Below, in pieces: positions 4,968 to 28,510 of a stretch of DNA of 33,398 nucleotides (within the stretch, counting starts at the first letter, position 1; each line of letters begins with the position of its first letter). Location of the stretch: UHGV virus genome UHGV-0115916. The stretch is one strand, 5' to 3'. Origin of the DNA: a virus. The translations under genes were made by a program, and so were the position numbers. Below the pieces are notes generated by a model, which saw only the letters and a program-made list of their open reading frames with translations, did not search any database and was not told the DNA's origin.

Positions 4968-5261
4968 TTACTCAAAAGCATACAATTCAAACGATAGAGT
5001 ACGTGCGGATATACCACCTGTGGGGGTATAGCGTACTGAAAAGCTATTAGTTTGAGGTACACAATAAAACTCACTAAAATTATTTGTTACTGGGATAATT
5101 AGCCAACCTGTAGGACGTACACCCGTAAAATTAACTGTCCATACGTTTGTAGTACCTGCTGCAATTGCTAATGAAGCCGTACCCATAAAACGCATATTGT
5201 AATCACCTAGATCTACTACAAGCCTACCGGATGCATCCCAGCATTGTAGACCTTGTGCCAT
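4968..5261 (-). CDS. Tail fibre-associated small protein (paralogous N-terminus to the 4312..4959 product)
   Basis: 97 aa; N-terminus MAQGLQCWDASGRLVVDLGD parallels MSGFQCYNDAGKLTIDSD. Confidence 0.5.
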   Translation of the reverse strand: MAQGLQCWDASGRLVVDLGDYNMRFMGTASLAIAAGTTNVWTVNFTGVRPTGWLIIPVTNNFSEFYCVPQTNSFSVRYTPTGGISARTLSFELYAFE

Positions 5262-5434
5262 TATTCACCACCCTGTGTATTATCGTTCTGTACTAATAGT
5301 TTGGGTAGGTCATCCCATGAATGATTACCAGACTTAAGAATTAAAAACCCTTCGGCCTCTGCCATTTCTACATCGTCTGCTGTGAGCATTAAGCCCATAA
5401 TCTGACCTTCTGAATTATAGATAAAATTGTACAT
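5261..5434 (-). CDS. Hypothetical small protein (57 aa; not in the ORF track)
   Basis: ATG at 5434 preceded by AGGAGA RBS; TAATG stop/start overlap with the 4968..5261 gene; translated by hand as MYNFIYNSEGQIMGLMLTADDVEMAEAEGFLILKSGNHSWDDLPKLLVQNDNTQGGE. Confidence 0.35.
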   Translation of the reverse strand: MYNFIYNSEGQIMGLMLTADDVEMAEAEGFLILKSGNHSWDDLPKLLVQNDNTQGGE

Positions 5435-23812: not shown

Positions 23813-23891
23813 TTTGTTTAGTCCTTGTTTAGTACAATAAACCTGTACTTTCCTTTTATTTCGTTTTGTTTGTTTTCGATTAGAAATCCCA

Positions 23892-23949
23892 CGAATTTTA
23901 AATACAATTCGCGGCGAAAACTCGATTTTTTTGTTCTCAATTAGAGAAC
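23892..23949. promoter_or_regulatory. Palindromic elements upstream of the terminase small subunit gene (candidate late operator / packaging-site region)
   Basis: CGAATT-N8-AATTCG (23892-23911) and perfect 17-bp palindrome GTTCTCAATTAGAGAAC (23933-23949) in the 229-bp intergenic region. Confidence 0.3.
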
Positions 23950-24041: not shown

Positions 24042-24980
24042 ATGAAACACATAATCCAAACCAGAAGTGTTTTTAAGGATATCGAAGACTCTTTATTTAG
24101 TGAGTTGCATTCAGCTAAGACAAGTATCAAAATCTGTGTTGCATGGATAAACTTTGAGCTTTTTGAAAATATATTATTATCTAAGGCTAAAGAAGGTGTT
24201 GAAGTTGAGATATTAGTTAATAATGATTATATCAATACAAAATTTCTTGATAAAATATCTGATAATATAAAACCATTAATTAATCTAATTAAAAACCCTA
24301 TTAGTAACCACTTAATGCATCATAAATTTTGTATCATTGATGATGAAGTTTTGATTACTGGCAGTTATAATTGGTCAAAAAGAGCACCATATCATTATGA
24401 AAATATAATAATCATCCGTAATGATTTCAATCTAATAATGCAATTTAAACATGAGTTTGCAGATTTAAAATACATGGGTGCAATGCCAAGTACAGAATTT
24501 AATGCATTTAAAGTAACCAAAAATCTCAATAGATTTGTTGTTGGCACATATAGTTCATCTGTGGGGATATATGAAACCGTCACATTGCAGTTATGGGAAA
24601 TTGATATTAACAACTTAACTTTTGAACGACATGGCGAAATGGATATCCCTTTCTTCAATTATTTATTAGATATTAATACTGATGATCATTATCTTATTGA
24701 TGAAAAAGAAAGGTACATCGATCTATATGATCAAGAGCGTAGACAGATGGAGACTATCCAAAGTCATTTTAGAAGATTAAATTGTTCAATTCATGCTTAT
24801 GGAACAGCAATAATAGCGAACGAGAGCGAATACCTTGAAGGTTATGAAGAGCCTATTCGTGTAATTCACTTCAATTGGATAGATATGCGATTAAGCAAAG
24901 TATTACCCTCTTCTTTGCCCGCAACTATGGAACTTGAAGGATTATGGCACGAAATATATGCTCCAAATGGATATATTTAA
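24042..24980 (+). CDS. Phospholipase-D-family (single HKD motif) nuclease with uncharacterised C-terminal domain
   Basis: 312 aa; exact H-x-K-x4-D-x6-G-S-x-N motif at aa 93-110 (HHKFCIIDDEVLITGSYN); AAGGA RBS 6 nt before the ATG; AT-rich gene. Confidence 0.8.
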   Translation: MKHIIQTRSVFKDIEDSLFSELHSAKTSIKICVAWINFELFENILLSKAKEGVEVEILVNNDYINTKFLDKISDNIKPLINLIKNPISNHLMHHKFCIIDDEVLITGSYNWSKRAPYHYENIIIIRNDFNLIMQFKHEFADLKYMGAMPSTEFNAFKVTKNLNRFVVGTYSSSVGIYETVTLQLWEIDINNLTFERHGEMDIPFFNYLLDINTDDHYLIDEKERYIDLYDQERRQMETIQSHFRRLNCSIHAYGTAIIANESEYLEGYEEPIRVIHFNWIDMRLSKVLPSSLPATMELEGLWHEIYAPNGYI

Positions 24981-25012
24981 ATAATATTCTATAATTAATG
25001 AGGAACGGTATT

Positions 25013-25372
25013 ATGTCTAATTATCCTATACCACTTAGCCTTGAATTTAATAGTCAAGATACTGCTAATATCATTTGTAGTTATCTAGAAAAAAATCATC
25101 AAGATTCTATTTTAAAAACCATATTAAATATAGATTTGTCTTTTATTGATTATCGTGCACAATCTTCTAATTACTTTATAATTAATGACGTTGAATATAT
25201 TGGAGATAATAATTATATTTTATATTATAAAATAAACTACTACATTTATAATCTCTGTAAAGATATGGATATTGATGATGACTACGAGACTTCGATAAAT
25301 TTTACATTGAATAATGGATTTTTAGTATTTGATATAATTGATTGTGAAAGAAATATATCAGATGAAATATAG
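25013..25372 (+). CDS. Hypothetical acidic small protein, partner of the PLD-family nuclease
   Basis: 120 aa from ATG 25013 (GAGGA RBS 8 nt upstream; the track start 24998 lacks an RBS); Asp/Glu-rich (DMDIDDDYE, DIIDCERNISDEI); 32 nt downstream of the nuclease gene. Confidence 0.5.
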   Translation: MSNYPIPLSLEFNSQDTANIICSYLEKNHQDSILKTILNIDLSFIDYRAQSSNYFIINDVEYIGDNNYILYYKINYYIYNLCKDMDIDDDYETSINFTLNNGFLVFDIIDCERNISDEI

Positions 25373-25436
25373 CCATATTTAATTATCACTTAAGGATTTC
25401 AACATCAGGATTTAAATTTTAATTATATATAATAGT

Positions 25437-25468
25437 AAAAGCCTAATACTCATCAGTAATAGGCTTTT
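25437..25468. terminator. Bidirectional terminator hairpin between convergent accessory operons
   Basis: 9-bp stem AAAAGCCTA (25437-25445) / TAGGCTTTT (25460-25468) with a 14-nt loop; A/T-rich flanks. Confidence 0.5.
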
Positions 25469-25475
25469 ACCTAAA

Positions 25476-25895
25476 TTATAATTGATTCAATCGATAGATA
25501 TTAGATGTACTTGAGCCATCGCTATACACCTCTGATATAGTCAGTTTGTTTCCATCCACTTTGTATTTTACTACACTATCAGCCGGATCATTTCTCCAAC
25601 GACCTGAGCTATCTGGATTGTTTGATGCCCACATAACTTGATCATCAATCAGTTTGCACTTGATAGCCCATCTTGTGCTGTCATCTTTACGTATGTAATG
25701 GACATAGGCTACATCAGATTGAATCTTATCAAGCTTCATTATTTTATGATCTCGCCCAAACATAGATGCAGCCGCCGCTTTGCAGATCTGACCAACATTA
25801 GCTTCCGCTGCGTAGAGTGAAGAACTGAACAATAATGGCACAATCACTAATAACTTTATCATCGCATATCGTCTCGTAGTAAAAATTAATTTCAC
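25476..25895 (-). CDS. Exported (signal-peptide) protein of unknown function
   Basis: 139 aa; GTG start at 25895 with AAGGA RBS; N-terminus MKLIFTTRRYAMIKLLVIVPLLFSSSLYA-AEA is a classical signal peptide; 1-nt gap to the upstream HNH gene. Confidence 0.6.
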   Translation of the reverse strand: MKLIFTTRRYAMIKLLVIVPLLFSSSLYAAEANVGQICKAAAASMFGRDHKIMKLDKIQSDVAYVHYIRKDDSTRWAIKCKLIDDQVMWASNNPDSSGRWRNDPADSVVKYKVDGNKLTISEVYSDGSSTSNIYRLNQL

Positions 25896-25896
25896 C

Positions 25897-26622
25897 TTAT
25901 TTCCTTAATAACTTTTTTAATTCCTCAACTGTCTTCATTTCTTTTCCAATATGAATCATTGCATGACAGTTTGCACATAAAGGTATAAGATCTTCAATTG
26001 GGTCAATCTTATAGCGTTTACCAATAGTATGTAGTGGCACTATATGATGAACATGAATATAATTTTTTCCGTGACTTCCATACACTTCTTCAAAATTAAA
26101 ACCACAGACACCACAACTCAAACCATGTTTATCGATACATTCTTTTCTAGCCTTTGGATCTCTCTCATAGTACGTAGCAATCCTTTGATGCTTTTCACCT
26201 TCATAGTATTCACTTTCTATTTCAGGTGTGAATGAATAGTAATCTTCATCGGTGGCATACCAATCTCCATCTTTTTTAGTAAGATATTTTCGTACTATTT
26301 TCTTTTCAAAATGTTTAATCCTAGCAGCACCATTTTCAGTTGTTTTCTCATGCCTAGTCTGGCTAAAGGTGAAAAGACTATACCCTTCATGTAAAATTTT
26401 ATCTATGTGTTCGATAGATTGTGTATAACCATTTTTTTTGTGTCCATTTACATTTTCACGCCAACTGCTAGCCAAGATTAAAACTTTCTTACCATCATCT
26501 GATCTAAGATCTTCCCAAGCTCCAAAAATTATTTTTTTGTTGATCTCATCAATAAATGACCAACTCCAGTTATCATTTTTACATGTAGCACCCAAAGAAC
26601 GCATGAACTCTGTTCGGGACAT
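25897..26622 (-). CDS. HNH nuclease (restriction / McrA-like) with N-terminal domain of unknown function
   Basis: 241 aa; C-terminal HNH motif CGVCGFNFEEVYGSHGKNYIHVHHIVPLHTIG ... LIPLCANCHAMIH; AAGGA RBS; N-terminal ~150 aa Trp-rich domain not identified. Confidence 0.75.
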   Translation of the reverse strand: MSRTEFMRSLGATCKNDNWSWSFIDEINKKIIFGAWEDLRSDDGKKVLILASSWRENVNGHKKNGYTQSIEHIDKILHEGYSLFTFSQTRHEKTTENGAARIKHFEKKIVRKYLTKKDGDWYATDEDYYSFTPEIESEYYEGEKHQRIATYYERDPKARKECIDKHGLSCGVCGFNFEEVYGSHGKNYIHVHHIVPLHTIGKRYKIDPIEDLIPLCANCHAMIHIGKEMKTVEELKKLLRK

Positions 26623-26659
26623 TTTTCATCCTTAAAATATGTGACCTACATCACATGAA

Positions 26660-26742
26660 ACTATCGACTGTAGGAGGTTTCTATCCTTCGTAAAGCTAAC
26701 AAACCTACCCAAAGTAGATAGAAACCTCCTACAATCGATAGT
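26660..26742. repeat. 26-bp near-perfect inverted repeat between divergent operons (candidate operator or RNA structure)
   Basis: Left arm ACTATCGACTGTAGGAGGTTTCTATC (26660-26685), right arm GATAGAAACCTCCTACAATCGATAGT (26717-26742); 25 of 26 positions complementary; 31-bp spacer. Confidence 0.7.
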
Positions 26743-26802
26743 GTATGTGTGTTCCTTTTGATGGTAAAGTATTAATATAGTGTTACCTAGACTGGGTGTA
26801 CA

Positions 26803-26808
26803 TATAAT
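26803..26808 (+). promoter_or_regulatory. Candidate -10 element (TATAAT) for the membrane-protein operon
   Basis: Perfect TATAAT 18 nt upstream of ATG 26826; no convincing -35 found, and the region is so AT-rich that this is weak evidence. Confidence 0.25.
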
Positions 26809-26825
26809 CAATATTTGGGTTTGAT

Positions 26826-27536
26826 ATGCTTAATCTCACTAAATGTAATTTACTTTTGATCGGCACTGTAATAACTCTATTACTGATAGCTATTCTTGTA
26901 GGTATAAAAATACTATTCTCCGATTCTAATCCAGATCTAGGCAGCTTAGCAGATTGGATCAGTTCTGTATCCGCAATAGGGACTCTTGGTGTTGCCTGGT
27001 TAGCTTATAGTAAAGCTGATGACTACATTGACAAAAAAGCTTCGGAAAGAGGAATTGATATCCTTGTCAATATGGTAACTGAATCATTCGTTGCTTATTT
27101 CAACTCACTAAATGAAACTAATTTCCATGCTTCAAAACTTGAAAATAAAATGATATTGATTGGCTTGGTTGATGAAAAAGTAGATTGCAATATTGAACTA
27201 CAATCATTAAGAGAAAAAATCATAACTCTCTTCGAAAATAGTCATCAAATAGACAAAGATTTTATAAAAATGAAAATAATGAAAATATCAAAACCCAGTG
27301 ATATTTTCTACGATCCAGTAACTAGCGATGATACATTGCAAGCGTTAAAATTAGCATTTCATAAACTGAACACTGAAATTTGTGAGAATGAAAATCAATA
27401 CAACATTAATAATGATTTACTTAGCGAAAATATCAACTTTATTAAAAACACTACCGAAAAGTTAGCCCATGATATTCGCAAACAGTTCTTTACCTCGCCG
27501 AATACTTATAAAGATTATTTTGGAAATCTGTCTTAA
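26826..27536 (+). CDS. Signal-anchored membrane protein (paralogue of the 1056..1796 product)
   Basis: 236 aa; N-terminal helix LLLIGTVITLLLIAILVGIKILF, DLGSLADWISS motif, second hydrophobic stretch, then a ~170-aa soluble domain. Confidence 0.6.
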   Translation: MLNLTKCNLLLIGTVITLLLIAILVGIKILFSDSNPDLGSLADWISSVSAIGTLGVAWLAYSKADDYIDKKASERGIDILVNMVTESFVAYFNSLNETNFHASKLENKMILIGLVDEKVDCNIELQSLREKIITLFENSHQIDKDFIKMKIMKISKPSDIFYDPVTSDDTLQALKLAFHKLNTEICENENQYNINNDLLSENINFIKNTTEKLAHDIRKQFFTSPNTYKDYFGNLS

Positions 27537-27581
27537 ATTATACGCTATCAAATATTCCATCAACATAAACAAGGAAAGTAG

Positions 27582-28280
27582 ATGACTACTCTCACTAGAA
27601 CTTATAATTTACCAAATGAGCTAGTTGAACATTTTTCAAATAACATTGTCTATTTCGAAAAACTTTTGTCTAAGGATTTTTCTGACTTAAATGTTAATGT
27701 AGCACCAGAAGACATTAAGAAAATAGAAAAATCTTTCGAAGTATCACATAGAATACGTGATTTCGAAATCAATCTGTATTGGCAAAGACTGAACTTCCTT
27801 TGGGCCATTACAGCATTGCTATTTGCTGGATGGGGAACATTGATCTTTAAAATCATCGAATTCAATGGAGGGGAAGCACCTTATATTATATTTGCCGCCT
27901 TATCATTTCTCTCACTTATAGGTGGGATTGTAACTATATTCACAAGCTTTATCATTGAGGCAGGTAAGCATTGGCAAAAGGTTTGGGAGTTTCATGTTCA
28001 CGCTCTTGAACCTTTTGTATCAGGTCATTTATATGCAATTCAGTTTTCTTATAAAAATAAAAAAAAGGCATCTATAAGTAGAAGCGTAGAAACTTTCAAT
28101 TATGCTTTGCTGTTTCTTTGGGCATGTTCAGCAGTATTCGCCGCAATCATCCCTTCACAAATAGGGAACGGTCTTGCAGGCATTATCCAATTAGTTATTT
28201 CTCTTCTTATAGTTGGTGCTTTTGTTTATATACGCAACTCTGTTACTAAAAAGGAGTCTATTAAAATTCAGCTTGATTAA
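27582..28280 (+). CDS. Integral membrane protein with about four predicted helices
   Basis: 232 aa; ~70-aa soluble N-terminus, then hydrophobic segments (LNFLWAITALLFAGWGTLIF; YIIFAALSFLSLIGGIVTIFTSFII; ALLFLWACSAVFAAIIP; LAGIIQLVISLLIVGAFVYI); AAGGAAAG RBS; 45 nt downstream of the 26826..27536 gene. Confidence 0.6.
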   Translation: MTTLTRTYNLPNELVEHFSNNIVYFEKLLSKDFSDLNVNVAPEDIKKIEKSFEVSHRIRDFEINLYWQRLNFLWAITALLFAGWGTLIFKIIEFNGGEAPYIIFAALSFLSLIGGIVTIFTSFIIEAGKHWQKVWEFHVHALEPFVSGHLYAIQFSYKNKKKASISRSVETFNYALLFLWACSAVFAAIIPSQIGNGLAGIIQLVISLLIVGAFVYIRNSVTKKESIKIQLD

Positions 28281-28300: not shown

Positions 28301-28510
28301 TTAAGCAGCCCCATAATGGGGCTTTCTTTTTTTAGCATTTACTTTTTGAATGCTCATAAGAATCTCACGTACCTTTGCTTCATTATCACCTGCATCATAT
28401 AGTACCCCATCTTTCCAGTACTGACCCAGTAGTTCTACTTTTGGTAAGCCCGGCATTGCCCTTACTCCATCTTCGTGATCAATATGTAATTCAAGTGATC
28501 CAATAATCAT
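28301..28510 (-). CDS. Hypothetical small protein
   Basis: 69-aa ORF; start overlaps the upstream ORF by 4 nt (ATGA-type coupling); 3' end overlaps the terminator hairpin. Confidence 0.4.
   Translation of the reverse strand: MIIGSLELHIDHEDGVRAMPGLPKVELLGQYWKDGVLYDAGDNEAKVREILMSIQKVNAKKRKPHYGAA
28307..28333 (+). terminator. Intrinsic terminator of the plus-strand membrane-protein operon
   Basis: 7-bp stem AGCCCCA (28307-28313) / TGGGGCT (28317-28323), 3-nt loop, then TTCTTTTTTTT. Confidence 0.65.

What the first reader, a model, noticed from the sequence alone, without database searches (positions are those of the whole stretch)
26660..26742. 26-bp near-perfect inverted repeat between the HNH operon and the divergent membrane-protein operon
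Arms at 26660-26685 and 26717-26742 are complementary at 25 of 26 positions with a 31-bp spacer. It sits in the 203-bp gap between divergently transcribed operons, where a terminator is not expected. That makes it a candidate operator for a dimeric regulator controlling both operons, or a long RNA hairpin in a 5' leader. Each arm contains an AGGAGG.
Basis: seen in the sequence. Interest (0 to 1): 0.5.

Follow-up and report, generated by a model that had tools for sequence, protein, structure and literature searches.

The report
Conserved prophage promoter-plus-RNA-hairpin module
The inverted repeat is real, but it is not a repressor binding site: it is one member of an undescribed family of prophage elements, each a small promoter followed directly by a hairpin whose stem changes freely while a 13-base loop stays the same, which points to a structured RNA made from the minus strand.

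Summary
In detail: arms 26660-26685 and 26717-26742, 25 of 26 complementary, 31-nt spacer, single copy.

About 30 distinct related loci in enterobacterial prophages (IMG/VR, E. coli, Pseudocitrobacter) carry the same module. Read on the window's minus strand it is:
- a -35 box (TTTACC);
- a 17-18 nt spacer;
- a -10 box TAnAnT, with T1, A2, A4 and T6 invariant;
- 0-7 nt;
- a 13-27 bp stem with at least 10 unrelated sequences;
- a loop holding the invariant GGGT(A/T/C)GGTTTGTT.

All 12 innermost stem pairs show compensatory changes. Internal G·U pairs outnumber A·C mismatches 19 to 3 on the minus strand. The AGGAGG in the arms is not conserved.

These facts exclude an operator for a dimeric regulator. 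They support a hairpin RNA that starts at its own sigma-70-type promoter. In this window it forms the 5' end of the HNH operon transcript.

On the opposite strand the -35 box doubles as an extended -10 (TGGTAAAGT) for the divergent membrane-protein operon. The module always points towards terS/terL, at the junction between early and packaging genes.

No Rfam family, annotation or paper describes it. Its function is inferred only. Most likely it is a cis-acting leader, either put-like or a transcript stabiliser. A trans-acting sRNA remains possible.

The parts
26660..26742 (-). Hairpin (the inverted repeat). On the minus strand the 5' arm is 26742..26717, the loop is 26716..26686 and the 3' arm is 26685..26660.
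   Evidence: The stem is far more stable than in arm-shuffled controls (-42.6 vs -11.5 kcal/mol, 0 of 300 shuffles).
26698..26710 (-). Invariant loop motif GGGTAGGTTTGTT. Family consensus is GGGT[A/T/C]GGTTTGTT.
   Evidence: 12 of 13 positions are invariant in 25 aligned members. Counts by variant: 27 A, 7 T, 1 C (this list includes 4 chance hits). The motif is read in different frames in different loci, so it is not coding.
26740..26745 (-). Predicted -10 hexamer TACACT of the hairpin promoter. It overlaps the first 3 nt of the 5' arm.
   Evidence: T1, A2, A4 and T6 are invariant across 25 members while the spacer is not conserved. Variants seen are TACACT, TAAACT, TACAAT, TATACT and TATAAT.
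26763..26768 (-). Predicted -35 hexamer TTTACC, 17 nt from the -10.
   Evidence: In members that lack this motif another TTG-type hexamer sits at 17-18 nt: TTCACA in L177, TTGCGG in L219, TTGATT in L229.
26762..26770 (+). TGGTAAAGT, a predicted extended -10 promoter of the divergent membrane-protein operon. It overlaps the -35 of the hairpin promoter (back-to-back promoters).
   Evidence: Conserved wherever a divergent cargo gene follows. It has decayed to AGGTAAAGC or AAGTAAAGC in L230/L239 and is absent in L219/L229, where no divergent gene is present.
26774..26802 (-). Alternative, non-conserved promoter-like site TGTACA-17-TATATT. Transcription from here would include the whole 26-bp stem.
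   Evidence: 9 of 12 matches. Not conserved in L021 or L022.
25897..26622 (-). HNH endonuclease gene (241 aa), the first gene downstream of the hairpin in this window. The 139-aa secreted-protein gene 25476-25895 follows it.
   Evidence: Pfam HNH 3.6e-08. Weak PADLOC match to a type IV methyl-directed restriction enzyme.
26826..27536 (+). Divergent cargo gene: an uncharacterised 1-2 TM protein (here called family 'C0').
   Evidence: No Pfam, PHROG, PADLOC or NCBIfam hit. A C0 homologue is present in all 26 element-bearing loci of the first set.
27582..28280 (+). Second cargo gene, Pfam 8xMP (octameric membrane protein family). A terminator-like site follows at 28307-28323.

Best explanation
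The inverted repeat encodes a promoter-proximal RNA hairpin on the window's minus strand. It belongs to a conserved, undescribed module. The module is a sigma-70-type promoter (-35 TTTACC at 26768..26763, -10 TACACT at 26745..26740) followed at once by a stem that only has to pair, and a loop whose 13 nt (GGGTAGGTTTGTT) are the sequence-specific part. In this window the hairpin forms the 5' end of the HNH-operon transcript. The promoter's -35 overlaps, back to back, the extended -10 (TGGTAAAGT) of the divergent membrane-protein operon, so RNA polymerase can probably occupy only one of the two at a time. What the sequence shows: conservation of the promoter boxes, covariation of the stem, invariance of the loop, the strand bias of G·U pairs, and constant orientation towards terS/terL at the early/packaging junction. 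What is inferred: the RNA acts in cis on the transcript or polymerase that made it. The loop would be recognised by a host or phage factor or by RNA polymerase itself, giving put-like anti-pausing or antitermination. The 5'-terminal stem would protect the transcript. Together these would let transcription from this point carry through the variable, partly opposite-strand cargo towards the packaging genes. Layered confidence: a real, selected hairpin element 0.9; transcribed from the minus-strand promoter 0.7; the cis-acting role given here about 0.35.
For: Homologous loci keep the hairpin but change the stem. L021 has GTAGGAGG/CCTCCTAC changed to GTTGGAGG/CCTCCAAC. L022, L033, L177, L167, L209 and others have unrelated stems. 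All 12 innermost pairs show changes on both sides, with a covariation score of 1.06 against 0.26 ± 0.03 in 500 shuffles. In 19 of 25 members none of 300 arm shuffles folds as well. The loop motif is invariant. The -10 keeps exactly the positions that matter for sigma-70 (T1, A2, A4, T6), 17-18 nt from a -35, across a non-conserved spacer. A scan that did not require the -35 motif still found members whose -10 sits 18 nt from a different TTG hexamer. The core stem starts 5-8 nt after the -10 in most members, which is the expected transcription start. Internal G·U pairs outnumber A·C mismatches 19:3 on this strand and 10:8 on the other. Window and L021 mismatches are all G·U on this strand. The hairpin strand is the terS/terL strand in every locus where these genes are held, with the element 1.6-4.2 kb upstream. 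Only 37 nt, with no room for another promoter, separate the hairpin from the HNH ATG.
Against: No transcript data exist. The promoter boxes match only 8 of 12 consensus positions, and the tool's own scan did not list them. In the window lineage the stem overlaps the -10. Two compensatory changes between the window and L022 lie in that outer part. A transcript starting about 7 nt after the -10 would not contain it. In more than 15 loci the next gene downstream is on the opposite strand, so the RNA is not always an mRNA leader. Related phages without the element have as many rightward terminator-like sites upstream of terS (0.38 vs 0.33 per kb), so no special need for antitermination is shown. 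The element is a single hairpin, unlike put. Members are related prophages, so the counts are not independent events.
Confidence: 0.35

Rival explanations
1. Trans-acting small RNA, a regulator or RNA antitoxin linked to the neighbouring membrane-protein cargo. The hairpin gives stability and the single-stranded G/U-rich loop is the seed or the protein-binding site.
For: It has its own promoter, a stable hairpin and an invariant exposed loop. It is tightly linked to C0/8xMP cargo: 26 of 26 loci in the first set carry C0, and 9 related C0-less phages lack the element. In many loci no same-strand gene follows.
Against: No terminator lies within 300 nt downstream in any member. The loop shows no complementarity to the first ~200 nt of the cargo mRNA beyond shuffled controls (z near 0). 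No recurrent complementary site exists within ±7 kb. The element also occurs with no divergent cargo gene and no C0 nearby (L230, L239). The loop is invariant while the cargo proteins are hypervariable.
Confidence: 0.2
2. A purely structural 5' hairpin with no specific recognition. It would act as a 5'-terminal stabiliser against RppH/RNase E, or as an RNase III processing site. In the window the duplex is 26 bp and perfect if the one G·U pair is counted.
For: In most members the stem starts at the predicted +1. Long perfect duplexes are RNase III substrates. The stem sequence is free to vary.
Against: This does not explain a 13-nt loop motif that is invariant across about 30 loci with unrelated stems.
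Confidence: 0.15
3. Promoter-proximal attenuator at the early/late junction, analogous to lambda PR'-tR'. A constitutive promoter makes a short hairpin-ended RNA unless a phage factor loads and allows read-through.
For: Its position is between the early genes and terS/terL, next to a cargo hotspot as in lambdoid phages. The hairpin follows the promoter directly. A few members have a U-run right after the stem (L179/L207, L196). The invariant motif lies about +17 to +29, where lambdoid Q factors engage paused polymerase (comparison from general knowledge).
Against: The window and most members have no U-tract on either strand. The loop is 19-31 nt. No gene co-occurring with the element was found in the flanks.
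Confidence: 0.12
4. DNA-level element: an operator or a cruciform that controls the two back-to-back promoters.
For: It lies between divergent genes. In the window lineage the repeat extends over the -10, with two compensatory changes there. Divergent transcription would supply negative supercoiling.
Against: Arm sequences are not conserved, so no shared half-site exists. The conserved part is asymmetric and central. Arm length and spacing vary, and the distance to the cargo -10 varies from 8 to 37 nt. Loops of 19-31 nt disfavour cruciform extrusion. The G·U strand bias argues for a single-stranded fold of one strand.
Confidence: 0.08

Closest known systems
HK022 put RNA (putL), a cis-acting antiterminator RNA
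   Same: Both are phage-encoded and lie at the very start of a sigma-70 transcript (putL starts at +3; PMC9378689). Both are structured RNAs with covarying stems and need no dedicated adjacent protein gene. Both point into a long operon that contains terminators.
   Different: put is about 70 nt with two stem-loops and a triplex and binds the beta' zinc-binding domain. This element is a single hairpin with a 13-nt invariant loop and shares no sequence with put. No antitermination activity has been tested.
Lambda PR' / 6S RNA / tR' with Q (the late-gene switch of lambdoid phages)
   Same: Both have a constitutive-looking promoter at the early/late junction beside a cargo hotspot, a short structured RNA right after the promoter, and orientation towards the packaging genes.
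   Different: Most members have no U-tract terminator, no Q homologue was identified, and the hairpin begins at +1 rather than about 190 nt downstream.
5'-terminal stabiliser hairpins (for example the ompA 5' UTR)
   Same: In both, the stem begins at or within a few nt of the 5' end, and the stem sequence is unimportant as long as it pairs.
   Different: Stabiliser hairpins do not need a conserved loop sequence. Here the loop is the most conserved part.
RfaH ops element (GGCGGTAGnnTG)
   Same: The loop contains GGTAG in most members. It is G/T-rich on the non-template strand and lies in the early transcribed region of a long operon.
   Different: Register and flanks differ (GGGTAGGTTTG). The A varies (A/T/C) among members. 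The match is too weak for membership.

Membership tests
Operator (palindromic site for a dimeric regulator) | Half-site sequence conserved among homologous loci | tested here: not met
   At least 10 unrelated arm sequences occur at the homologous position.
Operator (palindromic site for a dimeric regulator) | Short, fixed spacing between half-sites, with the centre not itself conserved or asymmetric | tested here: not met
   The spacer is 19-31 nt. The centre holds an asymmetric, invariant 13-mer.
Intrinsic (Rho-independent) terminator | G+C-rich stem with a 3-8 nt loop | tested here: not met
   The loop is 31 nt in the window and 19-31 nt in the family. The terminator scan does not list it.
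Intrinsic (Rho-independent) terminator | U-tract immediately 3' of the stem | tested here: not met
   None on either strand in the window. Present only in L179/L207 and, 8 nt away, in L196.
HK022 put RNA | Located at the start of a sigma-70 transcript | tested here: met
   Predicted only: the stem starts 0-8 nt after a conserved -10.
HK022 put RNA | About 70 nt with two stem-loops | tested here: not met
   A single hairpin in all members. put features taken from PMC9378689.
HK022 put RNA | Suppresses terminators and pauses by binding the RNA polymerase beta' zinc-binding domain | not testable with these tools
   Needs in vitro transcription or genetics.
Any Rfam 15 family | Score at or above the family's gathering threshold | tested here: not met
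   0 hits in the window and in 10 member loci. At the E-value threshold only generic miRNA-hairpin models matched, far below their gathering scores.
Antisense / type I or type III antitoxin RNA | Complementarity to the neighbouring toxin mRNA (type I), or tandem direct repeats processed by the toxin (type III) | tested here: not met
   Loop-to-cargo mRNA duplex energies equal shuffled controls. No tandem repeats are present. The two transcripts are back to back and do not overlap.
RfaH ops element | 12-nt GGCGGTAGnnTG on the non-template strand | tested here: not met
   Only GGTAG is shared, its A is variable, and the register to the TG differs by 1 nt (by inspection).
Integron attC-like recombination hairpin | Conserved boxes at the base of the stem with a variable centre | tested here: not met
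   The pattern is the opposite: variable stem and conserved centre.
Genome-wide repeat (REP/MITE) | Many copies per genome | tested here: not met
   One copy in the window, one locus among GTDB representative genomes, and one copy per prophage locus.

The most novel reading that the evidence does not exclude
This would be a new class of promoter-proximal phage RNA. A single hairpin starting at +1 would use its invariant 13-nt loop (GGGUWGGUUUGUU) to engage RNA polymerase or a host or phage elongation factor. That would make transcription from the early/late junction resistant to pausing, termination or head-on cargo transcription. Its promoter would also be wired back to back with the promoter of membrane-protein cargo genes, so that the two are mutually exclusive.
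Probability: 0.22. Interest if true: 0.75.

Novelty: new variant of a known kind. Interest (0 to 1): 0.55.

Why it matters
Only a few RNA elements are known that act on the polymerase that made them, such as put and EAR. How small one-directional prophages switch from early to packaging genes across variable cargo islands is poorly understood. This family offers a compact, testable candidate of about 100 bp with clear mutational predictions: the loop against the stem, and each of the two overlapping promoters. It also marks a hotspot where uncharacterised membrane proteins (the C0 family and Pfam 8xMP) and nucleases are carried, likely defence or exclusion cargo. The element could therefore help in finding and annotating such islands. 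Even if it proves to be only a stabiliser or an sRNA, it is a conserved, unannotated non-coding gene present in E. coli and related genomes.

Tried and rejected
- **Nucleotide searches.** Searching the 341-bp region and a 13-kb stretch against GenBank phages and complete E. coli genomes found nothing. Only a typical family member matched one E. coli chromosome, where nothing is annotated under it.
- **HNH association.** E. coli HNH homologues (70% and 67% identity) lack the element. L033, L177 and L052 have the element without HNH.
- **Phage backbone or cos/pac site.** 9 of 14 terS-related loci lack the element.
- **Protein coding.** The loop is read in at least two frames in different loci.
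- **Pseudoknot.** I considered pairing between the loop and the upstream ACUUUACC motif. The pairing is not kept in L022, and the motif is better explained as promoter boxes.
- **Loop as antisense seed.** Tested against the cargo mRNA, nearby phage DNA and the whole window. The only hit is one 12-nt match at 5300-5311, which is not recurrent.
- **Other sites checked by eye.** IHF site, boxA, DnaA box, sigma-dependent pause element and G-quadruplex: none is conserved across members.
- **Searches that gave little.** A protein-alignment-based locus search for the C0 family failed because no block was conserved enough. MAFFT could not align the 3' arms in register, so I used a pair-indexed alignment fitted to each sequence's own fold. 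No covariance model was built.
- **Literature.** Searches for 8xMP and for the loop sequence returned nothing relevant.

Full report
**1. The observation**

The window contains the repeat as described: arms 26660-26685 and 26717-26742, 25 of 26 complementary, with 31 nt between them. It is unique in the window, and no shuffle produced a match. It lies in the 203-bp gap between a minus-strand HNH endonuclease gene (25897-26622) and a plus-strand gene for a small membrane protein (26826-27536), which is followed by a Pfam 8xMP membrane protein (27582-28280). The one mismatch is C/A on the plus strand and G·U on the minus strand. Either strand folds far better than shuffles (z -6.4 and -5.2). The window is a prophage. 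terS, terL, portal and tail genes lie on the minus strand below 23971, and replication-type genes lie on the minus strand above 28300. A near-identical prophage sits in Pseudocitrobacter faecalis DSM 27453.

**2. Relatives: the stem varies and the loop does not**

IMG/VR loci encoding HNH homologues of 93% and 72% identity carry a hairpin at the same place.
- In L021 the arm has changed on both sides (GTAGGAGG/CCTCCTAC to GTTGGAGG/CCTCCAAC), and two further changes give G·U pairs on the HNH-sense strand.
- In L022 the stem is a different sequence altogether, yet pairs over 23 nt.
- The loop core TTGGGTAGGTTTGTTA is identical in both.

Scans with the loop core, with promoter motif plus loop, and with loop plus inner stem gave about 30 distinct members. 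They include one in a complete E. coli chromosome, where nothing is annotated under it.

The statistics on the stem are as follows.
- 25 members were aligned.
- The stems fall into at least 10 unrelated sequence classes, 13-27 bp long.
- Each member folds much better than versions with shuffled arms. In 19 of 25, none of 300 shuffles does as well.
- I built a pair-indexed alignment of the 12 innermost pairs. It is fitted to each sequence's own fold, which must be kept in mind. On it, all 12 pairs show changes on both sides. The covariation score is 1.06 against 0.26 ± 0.03 when partners are shuffled among sequences. Sliding the partners by 1-3 columns drops pairing from 100% to 43-64%.

The loop motif GGGT(A/T/C)GGTTTGTT is invariant at 12 of 13 positions. 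It is translated in different frames in different loci (TLGRFV against WVGLL), so it is not a coding constraint.

**3. A promoter is part of the element**

On the hairpin strand (window minus strand) two blocks are conserved upstream, separated by a non-conserved spacer.
- The first is (G)TACTTTACCA.
- The second, 17-18 nt further on, is TAnAnT, seen as TACACT, TAAACT, TACAAT, TATACT or TATAAT. T1, A2, A4 and T6 are invariant, which are the positions that matter most in a sigma-70 -10 hexamer.

The core stem begins 5-8 nt after this hexamer in most members, which is where transcription would start. Members that lack the ACTTTACC motif still have a TTG-type hexamer at the right distance: TTCACA-17-TATAAT in L177, TTGCGG-18-TACAAT in L219 and TTGATT-18-TAAACT in L229.

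In the window the boxes are TTTACC (26768..26763) and TACACT (26745..26740). They match 8 of 12 consensus positions, below the threshold of the scanning tool. The case therefore rests on conservation, not on match quality.

Read on the other strand, the first block is TGGTAAAGT, a good extended -10 about 35-55 nt upstream of the divergent gene's start codon. Where no divergent gene is present, this reading has decayed (AGGTAAAGC in L230, AAGTAAAGC in L239) or is absent (L219, L229), while the hairpin-strand promoter persists. The two promoters therefore appear to be back to back and overlapping.

**4. Which strand folds**

Within helices I counted positions flanked by pairs on both sides.
- On the hairpin strand they are G·U 19 times and A·C 3 times.
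- Folding the complementary strand gives 10 and 8.
- Total G·U counts (29 vs 20) and stabilities (15 of 25 more stable on the hairpin strand) point the same way, but weakly.

Together with the promoter, this favours an RNA, or at least a single-stranded fold, of the window's minus strand. These counts come from related prophages and are not independent events.

**5. Context**

The element is not tied to HNH. E. coli HNH homologues lack it, and L033, L052 and L177 have it without HNH.

It is not part of the phage backbone. 9 of 14 loci fetched through terS lack it.

In the first set of 26 loci it always accompanies a gene of one uncharacterised family, here called C0. These proteins have one or two N-terminal hydrophobic segments and a variable helical C-terminal part, and match no library. 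The C0 gene is usually immediately upstream and divergent, sometimes with 8xMP or another gene in between.

The promoter-independent scan changed this picture. It found members whose upstream neighbour is on the same strand, two of them with no C0 gene nearby (L230, L239). The constant features across all members are:
- position, 1.6-4.2 kb upstream of terS at the junction between early and packaging genes;
- orientation, which is always that of terS/terL.

What follows downstream is variable. It can be HNH, small secreted proteins, or, in more than 15 loci, a gene on the opposite strand (a C0 paralogue or the 'C3' protein).

**6. What it is not**

- **Operator for a dimeric protein.** There is no conserved half-site, the centre is asymmetric and conserved, and the geometry varies.
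- **Intrinsic terminator.** The loop is 19-31 nt and most members have no U-tract on either strand.
- **Genome-wide repeat.** It is single copy.
- **Any Rfam family.** No hits at gathering thresholds.
- **Antisense regulator of its neighbour.** The two transcripts do not overlap. The loop has no complementarity above background to the cargo mRNA or to anything recurrent within ±7 kb.
- **Typical sRNA gene.** No terminator follows within 300 nt.

**7. Most likely mechanism, and its limits**

Shown by sequence comparison: a selected hairpin with a sequence-specific loop, coupled to a conserved promoter that places the stem at the 5' end of the transcript. The element points towards the packaging genes and shares its -35 with the -10 of a divergent cargo promoter.

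Inferred: the RNA acts in cis. The nearest functional analogue is HK022 putL, a structured RNA that begins at +3 of its transcript and makes the transcribing polymerase resistant to pausing and termination without any phage protein (PMC9378689). A 5'-terminal stem would in addition protect the transcript. An invariant loop across phages with very different cargo fits a conserved partner such as RNA polymerase or a host factor.

Several points count against membership of the put family, and against the idea itself.
- This is one hairpin, not two.
- Related phages without the element have just as many rightward terminator-like sites.
- In the window lineage the stem overlaps the -10, with two compensatory changes there. 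That suggests either an additional upstream start (candidate at 26802..26774) or some DNA-level pairing.

I put about 0.35 on the cis-acting leader reading. The alternatives are:
- 0.2 on a trans-acting sRNA;
- 0.15 on a purely structural stabiliser or RNase III site;
- 0.12 on a lambda PR'-tR'-like attenuator;
- 0.08 on a DNA-level operator or cruciform.

**8. Verdict**

The operator interpretation is wrong. The 'RNA hairpin in a 5' leader' alternative is right for this window but too narrow. The feature is a member of a conserved, unannotated promoter-plus-hairpin family in small enterobacterial prophages. The kind of thing, a promoter-proximal structured phage RNA, is known. This family and its coupling to a back-to-back cargo promoter are not described in Rfam, in the annotations searched or in the literature searched. 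Its function remains untested.

Noticed in passing
window 26640-26655: A perfect CRP-type palindrome TGTGA-N6-TCACA lies between the hairpin and the HNH start codon. L021 and L022 have AGTGA-N6-TCACA at the same place; L167 and L208 lack it. Its centre is only about 26 nt upstream of the ATG, so it cannot be a standard class I or II activation site for a promoter upstream of HNH. It may be a roadblock or repressor site.
   Followed up: partly
window 24042-28280: A cargo island lies between the early genes and terS. It holds a PLD-family nuclease (24042-24980), a 124-aa protein, a secreted 139-aa protein, an HNH nuclease with a weak type IV restriction match, an uncharacterised 1-2 TM protein and a Pfam 8xMP membrane protein. 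This is likely defence or exclusion cargo, but PADLOC recognises no system.
   Followed up: partly
window 23889-23914 (minus strand): The hairpin CCGCGAATTGTATTTAAAATTCGTGG, followed by a T-rich tail, lies about 100 nt upstream of the probable true terS start. Similar hairpins occur at the same place in L166 and L169, the second of which lacks the element. It could be a terminator before the packaging genes or part of a packaging site.
   Followed up: no
L161 3839-3915 and L163 3837-3905: E. coli loci with HNH homologues carry a different hairpin just downstream of the HNH gene. The pattern is the opposite of the one studied here: conserved stem (ATCGATTGTTTG / CAAACAATCGAT) and variable loop. 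The stem shares ATCGATTGT with the window's arm.
   Followed up: no
L179, L186, L193, L194, L196, L202, L206, L211, L214 (downstream of the element): The uncharacterised C0 membrane-protein family occurs as two or three tandem paralogues per hotspot. The copies downstream of the hairpin lack the first hydrophobic segment.
   Followed up: partly
L179, L180, L186, L188, L196, L209, L211, L212, L219, L229, L230 and others, 0.1-2.7 kb downstream of the element: A divergent gene pair lies downstream of the element in more than 15 element-bearing loci and in none of the 11 related loci without it. One gene encodes a ~105-aa protein ending in GGLPF. The other encodes a ~224-aa protein whose N-terminal sequence looks, by eye, like an EAL domain; it was not searched against Pfam. 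In several loci the hairpin abuts the stop codon of the first gene.
   Followed up: no
window 5300-5311 (minus strand): GACCTACCCAAA is a 12-nt perfect complement of the loop. It is intergenic, upstream of ORF 4968..5261 in the tail-gene region. The chance expectation is about 0.02 per window. The homologous region of other phages was not held, so recurrence could not be checked.
   Followed up: partly
L177 6690-6750; L185 just after the hairpin; L175/L176: Short tandem repeats, (CCCTTA)n, (GTTCTTAT)n and (TCATTAC)n, lie in the non-coding DNA of this hotspot.
   Followed up: no
L167 4418-5321: The HNH gene downstream of the element is broken into three ORF pieces, so it is a probable pseudogene. 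The hairpin and promoter are intact.
   Followed up: no
L037 / L091 (about 2729-2830 in L037): This member keeps the promoter -35 block and the loop motif but has a degenerate -10 (TACACA) and almost no stem. It is possibly a decaying copy.
   Followed up: partly
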